A stretch of DNA of 38,253 nt from a virus, in IMG/VR virus record IMGVR_UViG_3300002821_000002, positions 1 to 38,253 of that record; one strand, 5' to 3'. The position numbers were made by a program, and so were the translations under genes. The number at the start of each line of letters is the position of its first letter. Positions within the stretch are counted from its first letter, which is position 1. The notes below the pieces were generated by a model. That model saw only the letters and a program-made list of their open reading frames with translations. It was not told the origin of the DNA and did not search any database. Of the stretch, positions 6,987-32,751 are shown piece after piece.

Positions 6987-7006
6987 GATTCCTGAAAAAC
7001 GGCAAG

Positions 7007-7091
7007 TGCGAGGGATGGGATTCGAACCCAAGAACCCCTGCGGGACTAGCCCCTGAAGCTAGCGTCGTTGACCTGGCTTGACTACCCTCGC
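7007..7091 (-). tRNA. trnL: tRNA-Leu(CAG), full length, probable attP
   Basis: GCGAGGG/CCCTCGC acceptor stem, CTAGC-TTCAGGG-GCTAG anticodon arm, long variable arm, TTCGAAT T-loop, A73, no encoded CCA; T5 run just downstream. Confidence 0.95.
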
Positions 7092-7166
7092 TCTTTTGAA
7101 TGATTTTGCACGATCCTGATGCCATGTTCCGTCATGCGGCCCTGAACCTTACGCAGCGTCATGGCG

Positions 7167-7174
7167 TTTATTTA
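7167..7174 (+). promoter_or_regulatory. TATA box for a probably leaderless integrase transcript
   Basis: TTTATTTA 25-32 nt upstream of ATG 7199. Confidence 0.5.
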
Positions 7175-7198
7175 CAGGAAAAACTATATAGAAAAACC

Positions 7199-8326
7199 AT
7201 GTCTGAGGAGTACCTGAAACATCTGCCGCAGCTCGACCCGGCCAACCGGAAAATAATCACGGCTTATATCCGCCGGCAGGAGCTCAAGCAGCTGCAACCG
7301 TCCAGCATCCAGGACAAGACCTGGCGGGTCTACTACCTGCTGAAGTTCCTGCGGTTCAAGGACGCGAAGGCAGTCACCAAGGCGGACCTGGAGGACTATA
7401 TCATCCACCGCAGGAAAACTGTGGCTCCCCGGACCCTGCAGGGCGATATGATCGAACTGCGGATCTTCTTCCGGTACCTCGACCCCGGAAAGGAAAAGGA
7501 GTTCTTCCCCGCTGATGAGAAGATGCAGAAGCCGAAGACCGAGTTCCCGGACCCACTGACCCGGGAGGAGATTGAGCGCTTGGTCAATGCATGCGACACG
7601 GTTCGCGACAAGGCTCTGGTCAAGTTCCTTTGGGATACCGGCTGCCGGCTCGATGAAGCCCTGTCCCTGAACGTGGGGGCCGTCAAATTCGACCAGTACG
7701 GCGGGTCCGTGAAGGTTGGCGGTAAGACCGGGGAGCGGGAACTCTGGCTGATTGACTGCGTGCCGGAGCTCCAGGCATGGGTCAACGCTCACCCCATGAA
7801 AGCGGATCCCGCGGCCCCGCTGTTCATCACCTACTCCCGGTACGGGTTCGGGGCCCGCAGGCTGAACGAGCGGACCGTGCAGAACCTGTGCAAGACCCTG
7901 CAGCGCAATGCCGGTGTCACCACGCGGGTCCATCCCCATGCATTCCGTCATGCCAGGGCCACGGACCGCGCCCGGGAGGGATTCACCGAGATGGAACTCC
8001 GGATCATGTTCGGGTGGAGCAAATCCAGCAACATGCCTGCAACCTACATCCACCTCTCCGGGGCCGATGTCAAGAAAAAGATCCTGCAGAAGGCGGGCCT
8101 GCAGGAAGCCGAGGTCCCCGCGGGAGAGCGGCCCCTGGACCCGGTCAAGTGCCCCCGCTGCGGTCTGCTGAACCAGAAGGGGTTCTATACCTGTGCCCGG
8201 TGCAATACGCCATTATCATCGGAGGCGATGCGGTATATCAAGCTGGGCCGTGAGCTCCTGGAGGATCCCGACATGATGATAGAGTATGCGCGGAAGAAGA
8301 AGCGGGAAGTAAAAGAGGGGGGATGA
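7199..8326 (+). CDS. int: Tyrosine integrase with C-terminal Zn ribbon
   Basis: TGCRLDE (R), GKTGER (K), HAFRH (HxxR), FGWS...PATYIHL (W, Y); CPRCG...CARC; adjacent to tRNA; start 7199 preferred to 7100. Confidence 0.95.
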   Translation: MSEEYLKHLPQLDPANRKIITAYIRRQELKQLQPSSIQDKTWRVYYLLKFLRFKDAKAVTKADLEDYIIHRRKTVAPRTLQGDMIELRIFFRYLDPGKEKEFFPADEKMQKPKTEFPDPLTREEIERLVNACDTVRDKALVKFLWDTGCRLDEALSLNVGAVKFDQYGGSVKVGGKTGERELWLIDCVPELQAWVNAHPMKADPAAPLFITYSRYGFGARRLNERTVQNLCKTLQRNAGVTTRVHPHAFRHARATDRAREGFTEMELRIMFGWSKSSNMPATYIHLSGADVKKKILQKAGLQEAEVPAGERPLDPVKCPRCGLLNQKGFYTCARCNTPLSSEAMRYIKLGRELLEDPDMMIEYARKKKREVKEGG

Positions 8327-11548: not shown

Positions 11549-11718
11549 CGGACATGACCCCCTCTATAAAAATAAACGTTCAGCCCGGGTATGCCGATAT
11601 CGATTTTTCAAACCCGAAAAATGGGGTTGTTGGAACGACCCTGCGGATGAACCCCCGCGAACTGATCGCGCTTCGGGATCTACTACTCAAGCATTTTCCG
11701 ATTGGGAGCGAGCCATGA
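11545..11718 (+). CDS. 57-aa hypothetical protein
   Basis: MTDMTPLYKINVQPGYADIDFSNPK...KHFPIGSEP; ATGA overlaps at both ends. Confidence 0.55.
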   Translation: MTDMTPSIKINVQPGYADIDFSNPKNGVVGTTLRMNPRELIALRDLLLKHFPIGSEP

Positions 11719-24506: not shown

Positions 24507-25129
24507 CGGCATGCTCGCCCCCGATCCCCTCGGCAGCCCAGGAGCCCGCAGCATCATCGACCGGGCCCGTGAACTATATCGCCGGGTCTGCTACTTCATC
24601 CGGGGCTGGCTCCGTGGTTAACCCCGGCGAGATCAAGACCATCGGCGGCGTGGAATACTGGATAGAGCCGGACGGGTACACGGTCGAGATGAAGTTCGTC
24701 CGGAAATACCCCGCCCTGTTCGGCCCGCTGGCTGTCGATCCTGACAAAGGCCAGGGAGATGTGGAATGCGACGACCCACTCTCGAAGATCACCGCGAAAC
24801 TCACCGGATACGGCGGCACCTACTCCACCTGGGCAGAACGGCACTGTTCCCTCAGTGCGCTGGCAATCGGCATCAACGATGTCGAATCCTCTGCCGATGT
24901 GCCCCCCTGCCCGAAGTTCTGGCTCCATGAAAACCAGTATTGGGTGGACCATATCGCCATAGGCCGGCTGACCAAGAAGACCAACGTCGCGGAAGCTGCC
25001 AGCACGACCTTCACGGGCATCCTGAGCAACCCGCGGGTGCTGGCGACCATCGCAGCGGCACTCACTGCCGGCGGGGTCTTCCTTCCGACCGCCGCAAAGA
25101 CCATCCTTGCGATGGTAGGTATCTCCTGA
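24503..25129 (+). CDS. Hypothetical protein with hydrophobic C-terminus
   Basis: 208 aa; ends VLATIAAALTAGGVFLPTAAKTILAMVGIS. Confidence 0.7.
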   Translation: MTACSPPIPSAAQEPAASSTGPVNYIAGSATSSGAGSVVNPGEIKTIGGVEYWIEPDGYTVEMKFVRKYPALFGPLAVDPDKGQGDVECDDPLSKITAKLTGYGGTYSTWAERHCSLSALAIGINDVESSADVPPCPKFWLHENQYWVDHIAIGRLTKKTNVAEAASTTFTGILSNPRVLATIAAALTAGGVFLPTAAKTILAMVGIS

Positions 25130-25139
25130 TGAACACTAC

Positions 25140-25305
25140 GGGCCGGGCTCTGATGAGGCAAAAATGACGCGGTTCAAACCATCCGCCCCGGCCCATCTCC
25201 CTGCGTGTAGCGGGCACGCTCCATCTCCCGCTGCATCCGGGGATCATCACTCCAACGAAGGCGGCTATGCTACCCTTACCGGTTCGTCGTTCCGGATGGC
25301 CGCCG
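25140..25305 (+). ncRNA. Candidate structured RNA: two acceptor-stem plus T-arm-like units flanking a long hairpin
   Basis: Stems 25140-47/25187-94, 25206-14/25227-35 and 25260-68/25296-304; substitutions form G-U pairs only on the + strand; loops begin TTC. Confidence 0.55.
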
Positions 25306-25485
25306 TCACCCTGTCAGATGAGAGAGGAGCAATAAAGTCCTGTAATGAGCCATAATGCAAACCGCACCAGGTACAGACGATCTTCCATCATGCTCCAAGT
25401 GAGATAATTGACCGATAAAACCTCTCCTCTTGAGGCAGGGACCCCGCAAGGGGACCCCCAGAAACGTAGAAAAACGTAGATTCCA

Positions 25486-25576
25486 GCCGCTGAAGCATTC
25501 GGGGAATGCCTGCACCCACACACACTCTGTCACATATGGGGTGCAGTAAATGCCGGTTCAACTCCGGCCCGTGGCT
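25486..25576 (+). ncRNA. tRNA-like element resembling tRNA-Cys, with the anticodon arm replaced by a long hairpin
   Basis: GCCGCTG/CCGTGGC acceptor (1 mismatch), GCATT/AATGC hairpin, CTGCACCC/GGGTGCAG stem, perfect T-arm GCCGG-TTCAACT-CCGGC, U discriminator. Confidence 0.7.
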
Positions 25577-25580
25577 CTCA

Positions 25581-25742
25581 ATGAAACACGAAATCGCAGA
25601 AGAACCCGCAACGGTCCGGCTCCGGCACATCCTCCGGCCCGACACCTGGAGCGGGCTCTCGCTGCTGGAGAAGATAGCGGTCGTGCAGCTGGCGCTCGGG
25701 GCCTGCACGTTCGTCCTGCTGGTCGTTCTGGTGACCGGATGA
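25581..25742 (+). CDS. 53-aa protein with C-terminal TM helix
   Basis: MKHEIAEEP...IAVVQLALGACTFVLLVVLVTG; stop overlaps next ATG. Confidence 0.55.
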   Translation: MKHEIAEEPATVRLRHILRPDTWSGLSLLEKIAVVQLALGACTFVLLVVLVTG

Positions 25743-25861
25743 TCTCCCGGCGCGACAAGACTCTCATCATCCTGACCTGTGCAGCAGCGGTAGCAATAGC
25801 GGCGTTCCTGATAGTGCTCCGGCAGTGGGCTGAACACCTGGCAGCAGCGGGGGTGCCGTGA
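25739..25861 (+). CDS. 40-aa single-TM protein
   Basis: MISRRDKTLIILTCAAAVAIAAFLIVLRQWAEHLAAAGVP; GTGA overlap with terS. Confidence 0.6.
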   Translation: MISRRDKTLIILTCAAAVAIAAFLIVLRQWAEHLAAAGVP

Positions 25862-26409
25862 GGATGGCCGTCGCGAAAAAGAGACCGGCGAAAGGCAAGA
25901 AGGCAAAAAAGAAGGCCGGACCGGCAAAGGCCGCTGCGGAGATGGGCCGCCCCACCAAGTATGACCCGGACGTGCACCCGCTCATGGGATGGATGCTGGC
26001 AATCCGGGGCAAGACCAACAAGGAGATCGCCGCCGGGCTTAGAATCTCAACCGGTACGCTATTCAGCTGGACAAAACTCCATGAGGACTTCCTGAGCGCC
26101 ATAAAAAGCGGCAAGGATGTCGCTGATGCAGGTGTCGAGCAGGCCCTGTACAAACGGGCGCTCGGGTATGACTACGACTTCACCGAGACCACTCACGACC
26201 CGGAGAAAGGCGACACCATCAAGAACGGCAAGAAGCATGTGGCCGGCGATGTCACTGCCCAGATCTTCTGGCTCTGCAACCGCAGGAAAGAGGACTGGAG
26301 GAACGTGAACAAGCTGGAACACAGCGGCCCGAACGGCGGCCCGATCCGGGTCGTGAAAGCCGAGGATCTGACTGATGACGAACTTGCAAGGATAGTCGCC
26401 CAGAAATGA
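25858..26409 (+). CDS. terS: Terminase small subunit
   Basis: GRPTKY...HTH...ADAGVEQALYKRALGY...DVTAQIFWL.NR...EHSGPNGGPI; precedes TerL. Confidence 0.9.
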   Translation: MRMAVAKKRPAKGKKAKKKAGPAKAAAEMGRPTKYDPDVHPLMGWMLAIRGKTNKEIAAGLRISTGTLFSWTKLHEDFLSAIKSGKDVADAGVEQALYKRALGYDYDFTETTHDPEKGDTIKNGKKHVAGDVTAQIFWLCNRRKEDWRNVNKLEHSGPNGGPIRVVKAEDLTDDELARIVAQK

Positions 26410-27917
26410 CCGAAGCCGCCGCCGCAACACCTACTCCCATCCTGCCTTATGAAGCTGCCGAGGAGATGCTGCGAAGGAGGAGTGCCCGAGCGGGGTTGCT
26501 CGAGTTCACCCGGTACACGAAACCCGATTACCAGACCAACTGGCACCACGATGCCCTGTGCAGGTACCTCGACCGGTTCGTATCAGGAGAGATCAAGCGG
26601 CTGATGGTCTTCATGCCGCCCAGGCACGGGAAATCCGAGCTTGTCAGTCGCCGGCTGCCTGCATACATCTTCGGGAGGGATCCAGACACCAGCATCATCT
26701 CCTGCTCTTATGGTGCTGACCTTGCATCACGCATGAATCGCGATGTCCAGCGAATCATCGAGTCACCCACGTACCGAAAACTGTTCCCGGACACTACCCT
26801 GTTCGGGACCAATGTGCGTACGGTCGCGGACGGCTCGTACCTGCGAAACTCCGATATTTTCGAGATTGTCGGGCACACGGGAGTATATCGTTCTGCAGGT
26901 GTCGGTGGCGGGATTACCGGCATGGGCTGTGTGTATGGGATCATCGACGACCCGCTCAAAAACCGGGAAGAGGCCTCCAGTCGGACGATCCGGGAGACCA
27001 TCTGGGAGTGGTATACCTCCACCTTCTACACCCGGCTCGAGAAGGATGCCCAGATCCTCATCACCATGACGCGGTGGCATGAGGGAGATCTCGCGGGCAA
27101 GGTCCTCGAGCTTGCCGAGAGTGAAGGTGGGGAGAAGTGGACCATCGTGAACTTTCCAGCGGTCGCTGAAACCCCGTCAGAAGACGACCCTCGGCATGTC
27201 GGCGACCCGCTCTGGCCGGAGAAGTACGATACCCGGAGACTCGAAGCTATTCGGACTACACTTGGTTCTTATCAGTGGTCCGCCCTTTACCAGCAACGCC
27301 CAACCCCGCAGGAAGGCGGGATGTTCAAGCGGCAGTGGTTCACGATCATCGACCAGGCACCCCGCGACCTCATTAAGGTCCGCAGGTGGGACCTGGCAGC
27401 GTCACTGAACAAGGGGGACTGGACAGCCGGGCTGCACTATGGCCGGAAAGACGGCCGGTTCTATATCCTTGATCTCCAGCACGTCAGGGAGAGCCCTGCA
27501 GGTGTCGAGGCCCTTGTTCGGCAGACCGCTCAGACGGACGGGTACGAGACTATGATCCGGATGGAGCGGGAGCCCGGTTCTTCTGGTGTCAACACCGTTG
27601 ACCACTACGCCAGGCACGTGCTCGTCGGGTACTCTTTCCTTGGCGTCCCCTCTACCGGATCGAAAGAGGTCCGGGCACAGCCTGTCAGTGCGGCGGCAGA
27701 GGCCGGCAACGTCTTCCTAGTCAAAGGACCATGGAACCTCGTGTTCCTGGATGAAGTCACCACGTTCCCGAACGGAGATAACGATGATATTGTCGATGTC
27801 CTGTCCGGAGCTCACCATGACCTTACCCAGAACGACGGTGCAACCGAACTGACACTTGAACACGCCGGCGGGTTCGGCCCGCAGAACAAGATGAAAATCC
27901 GAGGTGGATTAATGTGA
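26406..27917 (+). CDS. terL: Terminase large subunit
   Basis: LMVFMPPRHGKSE (Walker A), GIIDDP (Walker B), WDLA and NDDIVD nuclease motifs. Confidence 0.97.
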   Translation: MTEAAAATPTPILPYEAAEEMLRRRSARAGLLEFTRYTKPDYQTNWHHDALCRYLDRFVSGEIKRLMVFMPPRHGKSELVSRRLPAYIFGRDPDTSIISCSYGADLASRMNRDVQRIIESPTYRKLFPDTTLFGTNVRTVADGSYLRNSDIFEIVGHTGVYRSAGVGGGITGMGCVYGIIDDPLKNREEASSRTIRETIWEWYTSTFYTRLEKDAQILITMTRWHEGDLAGKVLELAESEGGEKWTIVNFPAVAETPSEDDPRHVGDPLWPEKYDTRRLEAIRTTLGSYQWSALYQQRPTPQEGGMFKRQWFTIIDQAPRDLIKVRRWDLAASLNKGDWTAGLHYGRKDGRFYILDLQHVRESPAGVEALVRQTAQTDGYETMIRMEREPGSSGVNTVDHYARHVLVGYSFLGVPSTGSKEVRAQPVSAAAEAGNVFLVKGPWNLVFLDEVTTFPNGDNDDIVDVLSGAHHDLTQNDGATELTLEHAGGFGPQNKMKIRGGLM

Positions 27918-31524: not shown

Positions 31525-32751
31525 ATGCCGTACTCCTCCGTAGAGGATTTGCCCGAAGAGGTCCGTTCAGCACTCCCGGACGGCGGGCAGCGCATTTTTC
31601 TTGCGGCATTCAATGCAGCCTTTGAGGGCACATGCAAGAACGATCCCGATCTGGAGGAGTGCGCGAATCGGGTCGCATGGGCCGCCGTCAAGGAGAAATA
31701 CGAGAAATCCGAGGATGGGAAGTGGACCGAACGCACCCGGAAACGGCAATGCCCGCCCGGCGTGTTCAACTGCACAGCCCCCCTGGCCGAAAGCCCGGGG
31801 CCGCTTGCCACCCTGAACGTCCTCGACACCTTCCAGCGTTTTCCGAACCCGCGTTTTCCCGAGGGCCTGAACCTCTGGTATGGGGCTGAAGCATTCGCCG
31901 GCACCGAACCCGCATGGCGGTCCGTGCCGCTGATCTATGCGCAGACCCATCCGGACGGCAGACAGCTCCTCACCGACCAGCCCGCCGCCCTTTCCTCCGT
32001 CAAGACAGTTGACGGCAGGCCGGGCCGGGTGGTCGGCTCGGTTGAAAACGCCAGGATTGTCAGGGAAGGCCAGCCCCGGATCGAAGTGAGCATGAAGTTC
32101 ACCGACCCCGAGGTCAAGCGGTTGTGGCACGAGAGTAAACTATCGCTCTCGTCCTCGATCATCGCCTATGACGATCCTTACCCCGGTATGCCGGAAAACC
32201 ACCGGAAGGTCCGGCCGGGCGTCAAGCCCAACCACGTCCTCGTATTTGTCCGGTCGCCCCGCGACCTCCCCGGAGATCCGGGTGCAATGTTCCTGAACAA
32301 CAAGCAGGAAATTAAGGAGCCTACCAAAATGCCTGAAGACACCAAGACTCCGCCCTCCTCACCCATCGAGCAGAAACTTGCAGAGATGGACCTGGAGCTG
32401 CGGAACATGAAGGCCGCCTGGAACCAGGCGCAGTCCGACATCAAGATGAAAGACGAACAGATTAAGGTCGCCGAACTCGACCAGAAGGAACGGCAGTGGA
32501 GCCGGCTGGCCGAGACCCTGCCGCGGGCGTGGGTCCACGGTGACGAAGAGGCCAAGAGCCGAAAACTCTTCGAGGACAACCCCGCCGAGTTCGTCCTCAA
32601 GCTGGTGTCCACCCTCAACGACACCCATACCAAAGCGATGGAGAAAGCCGGTGAGGAATACCAGCGGAAGACCGCCGCACCCCCGAAGAAACTGGCGGAC
32701 GTCTGCACGGGCCTTCGCGTGAACGGCAAGGCCGTCGGAGATGAATCATGA
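31525..32751 (+). CDS. ChaB-domain prohead protease/scaffold fusion
   Basis: MPYSSVEDLPEEVRSALP...IFLAAFNAAF...VAWAAVKEKY...GKW (ChaB); DUF2213-like core (HPD, LSLSS, NHV); coiled-coil C-terminus; precedes MCP. Confidence 0.8.
   Translation: MPYSSVEDLPEEVRSALPDGGQRIFLAAFNAAFEGTCKNDPDLEECANRVAWAAVKEKYEKSEDGKWTERTRKRQCPPGVFNCTAPLAESPGPLATLNVLDTFQRFPNPRFPEGLNLWYGAEAFAGTEPAWRSVPLIYAQTHPDGRQLLTDQPAALSSVKTVDGRPGRVVGSVENARIVREGQPRIEVSMKFTDPEVKRLWHESKLSLSSSIIAYDDPYPGMPENHRKVRPGVKPNHVLVFVRSPRDLPGDPGAMFLNNKQEIKEPTKMPEDTKTPPSSPIEQKLAEMDLELRNMKAAWNQAQSDIKMKDEQIKVAELDQKERQWSRLAETLPRAWVHGDEEAKSRKLFEDNPAEFVLKLVSTLNDTHTKAMEKAGEEYQRKTAAPPKKLADVCTGLRVNGKAVGDES

What the first reader, a model, noticed from the sequence alone, without database searches (positions are those of the whole stretch)
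25486..25576. tRNA-Cys look-alike with no anticodon loop, ending 4 nt before a start codon
Seen: a perfect T-arm, an acceptor starting G-C/C-G/C-G, a U discriminator, a D-like hairpin with GG, and an 8-bp stem with a roughly 21-nt CA-rich loop in place of the anticodon arm. From memory, the 3' end closely resembles archaeal tRNA-Cys (GCCGGTTCAAATCCGGCCCTTGGCT). Known: many methanogens charge tRNA-Cys through SepRS/SepCysS, with U73 among the identity elements. Inference: a SepRS/CysRS decoy or substrate, or a processing signal whose RNase Z cut yields a near-leaderless mRNA at ATG 25581. Many viral proteins here are Cys-rich.
Basis: partly seen in the sequence, partly recalled or inferred. Interest (0 to 1): 0.8.

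Follow-up and report, generated by a model that had tools for sequence, protein, structure and literature searches.

The report
tRNA-derived cutting signal before late genes
A worn-down viral threonine-tRNA gene that can no longer read codons ends four bases before the first late gene of a methanogen virus; relatives keep whole tRNAs or bare tRNA top-halves at the same spot, so it most likely marks where host tRNA-trimming enzymes cut the message, as in mitochondria.

Summary
Window 25486-25576 folds as a cloverleaf with an acceptor stem, a D hairpin and a perfect T arm. An 8-bp stem with a 21-nt loop replaces the anticodon arm. It ends in U, then CTCA, then ATG 25581. ARAGORN and Rfam do not call it a tRNA.

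It is not a tRNA-Cys mimic. Its leader, 5' half, loop core and trailer are homologous to a viral tRNA-Thr(UGU) gene at the same position in a related virus.

In 22 related viral loci, one of them a provirus in a Methanoregula genome, a conserved promoter-like region is followed by a tRNA (Thr or Met type), an anticodon-less cloverleaf or a 32-47-nt acceptor/T-arm minihelix. The first ATG of the late operon follows 3-5 nt later, with no Shine-Dalgarno. Elements and first genes are reshuffled among viruses, but the junction is kept.

The cloverleaf framework is 92-100% conserved where flanks are 53-68% identical.

Best reading (about 55%): a t-element. RNase P and RNase Z excise it, leaving a nearly leaderless late mRNA. 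No RNA data were available to test this.

The SepRS/CysRS decoy idea is not supported.

This scan has noted similar layouts in other archaeal viruses.

The parts
25400..25426 (+). A/T-rich boxes, a candidate archaeal TATA/BRE region of the late promoter
   Evidence: Two A/T-rich boxes (25402-25410 and 25414-25421) recur just upstream of the conserved motif in all related loci. The promoter role is inferred, not tested.
25427..25459 (+). Conserved promoter-proximal motif with a small G/C hairpin and a GNRA-type loop
   Evidence: An exact-pattern scan found it in 11 IMG/VR contigs and 4 true metagenome contigs. Two further metagenome hits were chance. It was found in none of 185,579 reference genomes. 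The hairpin stem varies between 3 and 4 bp and the loop letters vary. Fold.
25460..25485 (+). 5' leader of the element, with a direct 8-nt repeat at 25462-69 and 25472-79
   Evidence: The leader is shared with the viral tRNA-Thr loci L084, L082 and L166. It would be removed by RNase P under the proposed model (inferred).
25486..25492 (+). Acceptor stem, 5' strand
   Evidence: Pairs with 25569-75: 5 Watson-Crick pairs, 1 G.U and 1 U.C mismatch. Relatives L163 and L166 restore full pairing at positions 4:69 and 6:67.
25495..25509 (+). D-like hairpin with a run of four G in the loop
   Evidence: Identical in window, L092, L082 and L155.
25510..25546 (+). Long arm replacing the anticodon arm: 8-bp stem and 21-nt loop with a conserved 10-nt core at 25523-25532
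   Evidence: The eighth pair is C-G, U.G or U-A in different viruses. The core holds the TCTGT remnant of the Thr anticodon loop.
25547..25551 (+). Variable region
   Evidence: It differs between window and L092.
25552..25568 (+). T arm: 5 perfect pairs and a 7-nt T loop
   Evidence: Relative to L084, one T-stem pair is changed on both sides.
25569..25576 (+). Acceptor stem 3' strand and discriminator U (25576), the predicted RNase Z cut after 25576
   Evidence: The cut site is inferred from the known action of RNase Z (PMC1920247).
25577..25580 (+). 4-nt trailer (CTCA), the whole 5' leader of the predicted processed mRNA
   Evidence: In 21 of 22 loci the trailer is 3-5 nt and pyrimidine-rich, and 'TC' lies 1-2 nt before the ATG. 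There is no Shine-Dalgarno.
25581..25742 (+). First ORF of the late/packaging operon: a 53-aa protein with a C-terminal hydrophobic helix
   Evidence: 15 homologues, 13 invariant columns. No Pfam family. Its stop overlaps the next start.
25739..27917 (+). Rest of the operon head: a 40-aa ORF, a 183-aa ORF and the large terminase, each overlapping the previous gene by 4 nt
   Evidence: ORF list. Terminase_6N and Terminase_6C domains. SD-like motifs before internal starts.

Best explanation
The element is a non-decoding descendant of a viral tRNA-Thr(UGU) gene. It is retained as a tRNA-like processing module (a 't-element') at the head of the late (packaging and structural) operon of a tailed virus of Methanoregula-type methanogens.

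Proposed mechanism:
1. A conserved promoter about 60-90 nt upstream transcribes the leader, the element and the operon as one RNA.
2. Host RNase P cuts at the 5' end of the element (25486).
3. Host RNase Z cuts after the discriminator (25576).
4. This releases a roughly 91-nt tRNA-like RNA and an mRNA whose 5' end lies 4 nt before AUG 25581.
5. That mRNA has no Shine-Dalgarno and would be translated as a leaderless-type message. The downstream genes follow by their own SD sites and overlapping stop/start codons.

Shown here:
- tRNA ancestry.
- Loss of the anticodon loop.
- Purifying selection on the acceptor/D/T framework.
- The conserved junction across many viruses and element types.

Inferred:
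- Transcription through the element.
- The two cuts.
- Leaderless initiation.
For: (1) The fold has an intact acceptor stem, D hairpin and T arm but no anticodon loop. It is not recognised as a tRNA.

(2) It is homologous to the viral tRNA-Thr(UGU) of L084 in the leader, positions 1-12, the loop core, the T arm, the discriminator and the trailer. Sister loci L166 and L163 carry Thr(UGU) genes with long introns at 37/38.

(3) In 22 distinct related loci a tRNA or tRNA-like element heads the first late ORF. In every true hit to the upstream motif, the motif is followed by such an element. The classes are:
- Rfam-passing tRNAs of Thr, Met and another type;
- anticodon-less cloverleaves of three lineages;
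- 32-47-nt acceptor/T minihelices of three lineages.
The element ends 3-5 nt before an ATG in 21 of the 22. The exception, L099, has a 17-nt leader that carries a GGTGA Shine-Dalgarno.

(4) Elements and first ORFs are reassorted. One ORF family follows four element classes, and one minihelix class precedes three ORF families. The junction is kept throughout.

(5) The framework is 92-100% identical where flanks are 53-68% identical. Compensatory changes occur in the long arm, in the T and acceptor stems across the Thr lineage, and in 7 of 22 pairs of the Met lineage.

(6) There is no SD before ATG 25581, while many internal genes have one. All 22 first ORFs start with ATG.

(7) Host-type tRNA genes are mostly followed by T-rich terminators. 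Only 1 of 32 has an ATG-led ORF within 5 nt.

(8) Precedent:
- t-elements cut by RNase P and tRNase Z in Haloferax (PMC4326828);
- t-elements and acceptor-like stem-loops at mRNA 5' ends in plant mitochondria (PMC1920247).
Against: - No RNA data. No RNA run holds the stretch, and the only run that could be laid covers 24812-25069.
- Leaderless-type initiation is not documented for Methanoregula.
- The acceptor stem has a U.C mismatch and a G.U pair, which could weaken recognition.
- The 37-nt long arm, with its conserved stem and 10-nt loop core, is not needed for RNase P or RNase Z. It therefore hints at an additional or different function.
- The Met-type relatives look like working tRNAs, because their anticodon stems covary. 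In those viruses, close packing of a real tRNA gene against the next gene could be a by-product.
- The loci are related, so part of the junction conservation is shared ancestry.
Confidence: 0.55

Rival explanations
1. It is a decaying viral tRNA gene with no function of its own. The virus no longer needs its tRNA-Thr, the anticodon arm has mutated, and the tight spacing to the ATG is only viral genome compaction inherited from an ancestor.
For: - Sister viruses hold intact-looking tRNAs at the same place.
- The acceptor stem is imperfect.
- Viral genomes are compact, and other genes here overlap by 4 nt.
Against: - Decay would hit all arms equally. Here the acceptor, D and T parts are 92-100% identical between viruses whose flanks are 53-68% identical.
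- Three independent minihelix lineages keep exactly the acceptor/T half.
- The junction survives exchange of both the element and the downstream gene.
Confidence: 0.15
2. It still works as an adaptor-like RNA. Either it is spliced into a normal tRNA, or it is CCA-tailed and aminoacylated without an anticodon, for example by ThrRS through U73 and the first acceptor pairs, or by SepRS/CysRS. It would then act as a decoy, sensor or donor.
For: - G1-C72, C2-G71, C3-G70 and U73 are kept.
- U73 is a Thr identity determinant in Haloferax volcanii (PMC9976931).
- The elbow-forming G run and T loop are intact.
- The conserved long arm is unexplained by processing alone.
Against: - There is no bulge-helix-bulge at the long arm (fold, sequence).
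- ARAGORN with introns allowed gives a different anticodon in each close relative: His in window, Gly in L082, Asp in L155, each starting with A. There is therefore no conserved spliced product.
- There is no GCA anticodon, which is the main CysRS/SepRS determinant (PMC9976931).
- Minihelix relatives at the same site lack any anticodon arm.
Confidence: 0.08
3. It acts at the DNA level. It would be a leftover or secondary attachment site, a recombination hot spot at a module boundary, part of a pac/cos region upstream of the terminase genes, or a carrier of an internal promoter that starts a leaderless transcript at the ATG.
For: - It lies at the early/late module boundary, about 830 nt upstream of the large terminase.
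- L155 is a recombinant whose breakpoints fall inside the element.
- Several related contigs end 120-460 nt upstream of the motif.
- The A/T-rich variable region lies about 30 nt before the ATG.
Against: - The integrase and its own complete tRNA-Leu att site are 18 kb away.
- Changes on both sides of stems point to selection on an RNA fold.
- The A/T-rich variable region is replaced by a G/C-richer one in L092 and L165 and is absent from the Met-type and minihelix loci.
- The element has no close match in the likely host beyond general tRNA likeness.
Confidence: 0.12
4. It is an uncut 5' structure. The tRNA-like fold stays attached to the mRNA and protects its 5' end from exonucleases, or helps recruit the ribosome to the adjacent AUG.
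For: - It sits at the very 5' part of the predicted transcript.
- It is a stable fold.
- The nearest, sub-threshold Rfam match is a viral tRNA-like UTR element.
Against: - A stable helix ending 4 nt before an AUG without an SD would hinder, not help, small-subunit binding (inference).
- Real tRNAs at the same site in relatives are expected to be excised by RNase P and RNase Z, as any pre-tRNA is.
- The Rfam match scores 17.7 bits against a threshold of 40.
Confidence: 0.1

Closest known systems
t-elements of Haloferax volcanii: the tRNA-like structure directly upstream of 5S rRNA, cut by tRNase Z to make the 5S 5' end, and reused to release crRNAs
   Same: - An archaeal, non-decoding tRNA-like fold placed directly 5' of a functional RNA.
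[quoted passage not shown]
   Different: - Here it precedes a protein-coding operon of a virus, and the cut would define a 3-5-nt mRNA leader.
- It belongs to an exchangeable series running from full tRNAs to minihelices.
- Processing has not been shown here.
t-elements and acceptor-like stem-loops of plant mitochondria
   Same: - tRNA-like folds with a conserved T arm, and minimal acceptor-like stem-loops, coincide with mRNA 5' ends attributed to RNase Z (PMC1920247).
- One of these (rps4) lies at position +2 relative to the start.
   Different: - Organelle versus archaeal virus.
- The plant mRNAs mostly keep long leaders.
- Here the spacing to the AUG is fixed at 3-5 nt across 21 loci.
tRNA punctuation of animal mitochondrial transcripts
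   Same: Excision of tRNAs by RNase P and RNase Z liberates mRNAs that start at or next to the start codon (review PMC3790967, listed; details from general knowledge).
   Different: - There it applies at every gene border and uses working tRNAs.
- Here one site per genome heads the late operon and tolerates non-decoding substitutes.
Viral tRNA genes of archaeal tailed viruses (for example HGTV-1 and the HFTV1 vtRNA-Thr)
   Same: - Virus-encoded tRNAs, some with odd anticodon regions (bioRxiv 10.64898/2026.09.13.751334).
- In the HGTV-1 record, two tRNA-Arg genes end 2 nt before annotated CDS starts.
   Different: - Those are read as decoding tRNAs.
- In the papers I could search, no one links them to mRNA 5' end formation.
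- The window element cannot decode.

Membership tests
Canonical tRNA (Rfam RF00005) | Covariance-model score at or above the gathering cut-off (29 bits) | tested here: not met
   No RF00005 match even at E up to 10 on 25300-25750, and none at gathering. Seven relatives at the same site score 49-53 bits.
Canonical tRNA (Rfam RF00005) | 5-bp anticodon stem with a 7-nt loop, U33 and a purine at 37 | tested here: not met
   There is an 8-bp stem with a 21-nt loop. The remnant of the Thr loop has a pyrimidine where position 37 would be.
Canonical tRNA (Rfam RF00005) | 7-bp acceptor stem, T arm with a 7-nt T loop, D loop with GG | tested here: met
   Acceptor: 6 of 7 positions paired (one of them G.U) and one U.C mismatch. 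T arm perfect. Four G in the D loop.
tRNA-Cys / SepRS-CysRS substrate | GCA anticodon (with G37) and U73 | tested here: not met
   U73 is present but there is no GCA anticodon loop. Identity rules from PMC9976931.
tRNA-Cys / SepRS-CysRS substrate | Sequence descent from tRNA-Cys | tested here: not met
   The 3' half scores best against host tRNA-Cys. The 5' half, leader, loop core and trailer align to the viral tRNA-Thr(UGU) of L084.
Intron-containing archaeal tRNA | Bulge-helix-bulge at the exon-intron borders, giving the same mature anticodon in close relatives | tested here: not met
   No 3-nt bulges flank a 4-bp helix in the long arm. ARAGORN with introns gives His, Gly and Asp for window, L082 and L155. 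By contrast, L166 and L163 do show a BHB-like fold at 37/38.
t-element (tRNA-like RNA processing signal) | Non-decoding tRNA-like fold that keeps the acceptor stem and T arm | tested here: met
   Minihelix relatives keep only these parts.
t-element (tRNA-like RNA processing signal) | Placed directly next to the end of a functional RNA | tested here: met
   It ends 4 nt before the first ATG of the late operon. The distance is 3-5 nt in 21 of 22 loci.
t-element (tRNA-like RNA processing signal) | Cut by RNase P and RNase Z, with mature RNA ends coinciding with the ends of the element | not testable with these tools
   No RNA run holds the stretch. The laid run does not cover it.
tRNA-derived attachment site (attP) | Next to an integrase and identical to the 3' part of a host tRNA gene | tested here: not met
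   The integrase (7100-8326) sits beside a complete tRNA-Leu (7006-7091). That tRNA-Leu is identical to the one at a provirus/host junction in a Methanoregula genome. The element is 18 kb away and matches no host tRNA closely.
Tymovirus-type tRNA-like 3' UTR element (RF00233) | Score at or above the gathering cut-off (40 bits) | tested here: not met
   17.7 bits, E = 0.23. This is a chance likeness of stems and T loop.

The most novel reading that the evidence does not exclude
A clade of methanogen (Methanoregula-type) tailed viruses makes translation of its whole late operon depend on the host tRNA-processing machinery. Any RNase P/RNase Z substrate, from a working tRNA to a 32-nt acceptor/T minihelix, can be plugged in 3-5 nt before the first AUG, and excision creates a leaderless-type mRNA. 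This would be an archaeal-virus counterpart of mitochondrial tRNA punctuation. A further, less likely layer is that the excised anticodon-less RNA, with its conserved long arm and loop core, has a second job of its own, for example binding ThrRS or another factor.
Probability: 0.5. Interest if true: 0.75.

Novelty: new variant of a known kind. Interest (0 to 1): 0.62.

Why it matters
- **Biology.** If the cuts occur, archaeal viruses mature their late messages with the host's tRNA enzymes. That principle is known from mitochondria and from one Haloferax rRNA site. I found no paper describing it for archaeal viruses or for methanogens in the searches I could run.
- **Natural experiment.** The series runs from whole tRNA to anticodon-less cloverleaf to minihelix. 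It shows which parts of a tRNA must stay for the job.
- **Annotation.** It explains odd 'pseudo-tRNAs' in viral genomes. It also exposes an annotation error: gene callers extend the first ORF through the element. In the public protein collection, the 76-, 78- and 69-aa versions of the 53-aa protein are such read-throughs.
- **Tools.** It could supply compact processing modules for expression tools in methanogens, as t-elements already do in Haloferax.
- **Wider pattern.** The same scan has flagged similar layouts in other archaeal viruses, so the phenomenon may be widespread. It is testable in cultured systems such as HGTV-1.

Tried and rejected
- **Default detectors.** ARAGORN finds only the tRNA-Leu at 7006-7091. 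Rfam finds nothing at gathering. With relaxed thresholds it gives only sub-threshold chance matches.
- **Splicing to a normal tRNA.** Rejected: no bulge-helix-bulge, and the forced 'anticodons' are inconsistent among close relatives.
- **tRNA-Cys origin.** Rejected in favour of the viral tRNA-Thr lineage.
- **Large terminase as a route to relatives.** 80 loci were fetched, but only L011 and L012 share the arrangement. A BLAST of the element against them found nothing beyond L082.
- **Upstream motif in 185,579 reference genomes.** No exact match. The related provirus in the Methanoregula genome has a diverged motif.
- **Large terminase in that Methanoregula genome.** Not found with this query.
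- **Deposited phage genomes.** No DNA match to 25340-25760. The nearest terminases are bacterial phages at 44% identity or less.
- **RNA evidence.** No RNA holder is listed. The one run that could be laid gives a single contig at 24812-25069 and nothing on the element.
- **Reverse complement of the conserved loop core elsewhere in the window, as a possible antisense target.** No minus-strand match, and the number of matches is no more than chance.
  - 25140-25198 folds well (z = -2.7), but it is not conserved in L155 and is overlapped by an ORF.
  - 25262-25318 folds no better than shuffles (z = +1.1).
- **Hoelzle 2008 (PMC2327364).** It could not be read.
- **A fold script.** The fold was done by reference instead.

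Full report
**What is there**

- The 7-position acceptor stem (25486-92 with 25569-75) starts G-C, C-G, C-G. It then has G.U, C-G, a U.C mismatch and G-C.
- A hairpin at 25495-25509 carries four G in its loop.
- An 8-bp stem with a 21-nt CA-rich loop (25510-25546) stands where the anticodon arm should be.
- A perfect T arm lies at 25552-68.
- The discriminator is U at 25576.
- Four bases (CTCA) follow, then ATG 25581.
- The fold is more stable than 199 of 200 shuffles (z = -2.6).

ARAGORN in default mode and the Rfam tRNA model do not see it. The best relaxed Rfam match is a sub-threshold likeness to a plant-virus tRNA-like UTR.

**Context**

The window is an IMG/VR virus record, estimated 62% complete. 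Its gene content:
- a tyrosine integrase (7100-8326) beside a complete tRNA-Leu(CAG) (7006-7091, minus strand);
- a methylase, a radical-SAM-like protein and other early genes;
- from 25.6 kb on, a packaging and head module with the large terminase at 26406-27917.

The element lies in the roughly 450-nt gap before that module.

The first four genes after it are 25581-25742, 25739-25861, 25858-26409 and 26406-27917. Each overlaps its predecessor by 4 nt.

Many internal starts have a Shine-Dalgarno-like motif. ATG 25581 has none.

The likely host is Methanoregula.
- An exact scan with the 3' part of the viral tRNA-Leu hit one contig of a Methanoregula metagenome-assembled genome.
- That contig holds a tRNA-Leu identical to the window's over its whole length.
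- Archaeal chromosomal genes flank it on one side: TBP, an Lhr helicase and acyl-CoA synthetases.
- A related provirus flanks it on the other.

**Relatives**

I reached relatives in four ways:
- an exact scan with the T arm plus acceptor;
- homologues of the 53-aa first ORF and their contigs;
- a scan for a conserved upstream motif;
- a profile of the small ORF.

The result is 22 distinct loci: the 21 tabulated plus L166, which was read. Every true hit to the upstream motif is followed by a tRNA or a tRNA-derived fold, and then almost at once by an ATG.

| Class | Loci | Notes |
|---|---|---|
| Anticodon-less cloverleaf (the window type) | window, L092 (= L165), L082, L155 | U, then CTCA, then ATG |
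| tRNA-Thr(UGU) | L084 (= L085, L101); L166, L163 (= L164) | L084 passes Rfam at 53 bits. L166 and L163 have about 70-nt and 47-nt introns at 37/38 and a bulge-helix-bulge-like fold |
| tRNA-Met(CAU) type, initiator-like | L086, L090, L098, L157, L011 | Four of the five (L086, L090, L098, L011) score 50-53 bits; L157 was not scanned. 7 of 22 pairs covary |
| Other cloverleaves with spoiled anticodon loops | L087 (= L100), the Methanoregula provirus (L152), L099 | L087 has an all-A loop. L152 has a long stem. L099 has an 8-nt loop |
| Acceptor/T-arm minihelices, 32-47 nt, three lineages | L012, L095, L093, L094; L083, L089; L159 (also L161, L168) | Fold z = -2.6 to -4.2 |

**Where the element comes from**

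The window element shares the following with the tRNA-Thr of L084:
- the repeat-bearing leader;
- the first 12 positions, including an unusual A at position 8;
- the TCTGT core of the anticodon loop;
- the T arm, with one pair changed on both sides;
- the discriminator U;
- the trailer and the first two codons.

That likeness is no stronger than its likeness to the viral Thr gene, and the 5' half clearly sides with the latter. The element is a derivative of a viral tRNA-Thr lineage.

**It does not decode**

- The long arm has no bulge-helix-bulge.
- When ARAGORN is allowed introns, it invents a different anticodon for each close relative: His in window, Gly in L082, Asp in L155. Yet window and L155 are 96-97% identical just downstream.
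- The remnant Thr loop has lost the purine at position 37.

**It is under selection as an RNA**

- Between window and L082, the 5' 32 nt and 3' 38 nt of the element are 97% and 95% identical. The upstream 150 nt, the first ORF and the next 600 nt are 65%, 68% and 53% identical.
- The eighth pair of the long arm is C-G, U.G or U-A in different viruses.
- Across the Thr lineage, acceptor pairs 4:69 and 6:67 and one T-stem pair change while keeping or restoring pairing.

**The junction rule**

- In 21 of 22 loci the discriminator is followed by 3-5 pyrimidine-rich bases, always with TC 1-2 nt before the ATG, and then by ATG.
- In the one exception, L099, the leader is 17 nt long and carries a GGTGA Shine-Dalgarno at the proper distance.
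- The first ORF belongs to at least six unrelated families.
- The small membrane-protein family follows four different element classes. One minihelix class precedes three different ORFs. The junction therefore survives exchange of both partners.
- L155 is a recombinant with breakpoints inside the element.
- As a control, tRNA genes of the Methanoregula genome are mostly followed by T-rich terminators. Only 1 of 32 has an ATG-led ORF within 5 nt.

**Mechanism**

What all forms keep is the acceptor stem plus T arm. This is the part that RNase P, RNase Z and the CCA-adding enzyme recognise (established knowledge). Minimal stem-loops are discussed as RNase Z and RNase P signals in PMC1920247.

Precedents:
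- In Haloferax, a tRNA-like 't-element' directly upstream of 5S rRNA is cut by tRNase Z to make the 5S 5' end. t-elements flanking a crRNA are excised in vivo (PMC4326828).
- In plant mitochondria, t-elements sit at mRNA 5' ends (PMC1920247).
- Animal mitochondria release near-leaderless mRNAs by tRNA excision (PMC3790967, listed; details from general knowledge).

I therefore read the element as a t-element whose 3' cut leaves an mRNA with a 4-nt leader. The lack of an SD fits leaderless-type initiation. So does the invariable ATG, which several other candidate gene starts in the window (GTG, TTG) do not share.

Transcription through the element, the cuts and the mode of initiation are all inferred.

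**What does not fit neatly**

- The long arm and its 10-nt loop core are conserved, although processing does not need them.
- An acceptor mismatch at 4:69 recurs in four lineages.
- The Met-type relatives look like working tRNAs, so decoding and punctuation may coexist.

These points keep the rival readings alive: plain decay, a charged or decoy RNA, a DNA-level role, or an uncut 5' structure.

**Limits**

- No RNA run holds this sequence, and the one run that could be laid does not cover the element.
- No cultured relative exists in the phage collection.

**Novelty**

- In the full-text searches I could run, I found no paper describing tRNA-type punctuation of archaeal virus messages.
- Earlier AI notes of this scan report similar layouts in other archaeal viruses. 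They are not independent evidence.
- I checked one of their claims in part. In the HGTV-1 record, two tRNA-Arg genes end 2 nt before annotated CDS starts.
- I class the finding as a new variant of a known kind (t-elements and tRNA punctuation).

Noticed in passing
window 7006-7091 (-) and 7100-8326 (+): A complete tRNA-Leu(CAG) sits beside the integrase. It is identical over its full length to the tRNA-Leu at a provirus/host junction in a Methanoregula genome contig (L153, about 11556-11640). That junction is flanked by TBP, Lhr and acyl-CoA synthetase genes. This is the att site, and it gives the host assignment. ARAGORN finds this tRNA, but the Rfam gathering scan of the window listed nothing.
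   Followed up: partly
window 25427-25459; also L011, L012, L082-L084, L087, L089, L090, L092-L095, L098, L099: A strongly conserved promoter-proximal motif ends in a small G/C hairpin whose loop is usually GNRA-like and whose stem length varies. It was found in viral and metagenome contigs and in none of 185,579 reference genomes by exact pattern. It could be a late-promoter operator or the 5' hairpin of the transcript. Conservation extends about 100 nt further upstream.
   Followed up: partly
L166 181-324 and L163 432-555: These are viral tRNA-Thr(UGU) genes with long introns (about 70 and 47 nt) at the canonical 37/38 position and a bulge-helix-bulge-like fold. Both have C at position 33. 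ARAGORN misses them even with introns allowed.
   Followed up: partly
acceptor position 4:69 in L086, L090, L098, L099, L083, L012, L093-L095: A mismatch at the fourth acceptor pair (A opposite C, A or G) recurs in four separate element lineages. It is repaired in L011 and L157. This may be a shared feature that keeps these RNAs out of translation or marks them for a particular enzyme.
   Followed up: no
window 25140-25198, 25205-25236, 25262-25318: Another first-reader note calls this region an array of three tRNA-like elements. 25140-25198 folds as an acceptor-like 8-bp stem with a T-like hairpin (z = -2.7), but it overlaps ORF 25164-25355 and is not conserved in L155. 25262-25318 folds no better than shuffles. 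An 8-bp hairpin at about 25205-25236 is conserved in L155.
   Followed up: partly
L155 1108-1196 and flanks: This is a recombinant virus. Upstream and in the long arm it resembles L082; downstream it is 96-97% identical to the window. The exchange point therefore lies inside the element.
   Followed up: partly
proteins P0002, P0003 and P0009 of the public collection: Gene callers extended the 53-aa first ORF upstream through the tRNA-like element, giving 76-, 78- and 69-aa products. The extra N-terminal residues are a translation of the T arm and acceptor strand.
   Followed up: partly
L169 (HGTV-1, NC_021328) about 46352-46430 and 46698-46774, minus strand: In this cultured halovirus, two tRNA-Arg genes end 2 nt before the annotated start of the next CDS on the same strand. 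This is the same layout in a system that can be grown.
   Followed up: partly
window 31525-32751: This 408-aa protein in the head module carries an N-terminal ChaB domain (Pfam PF06150), which is unusual for a capsid-region gene.
   Followed up: no
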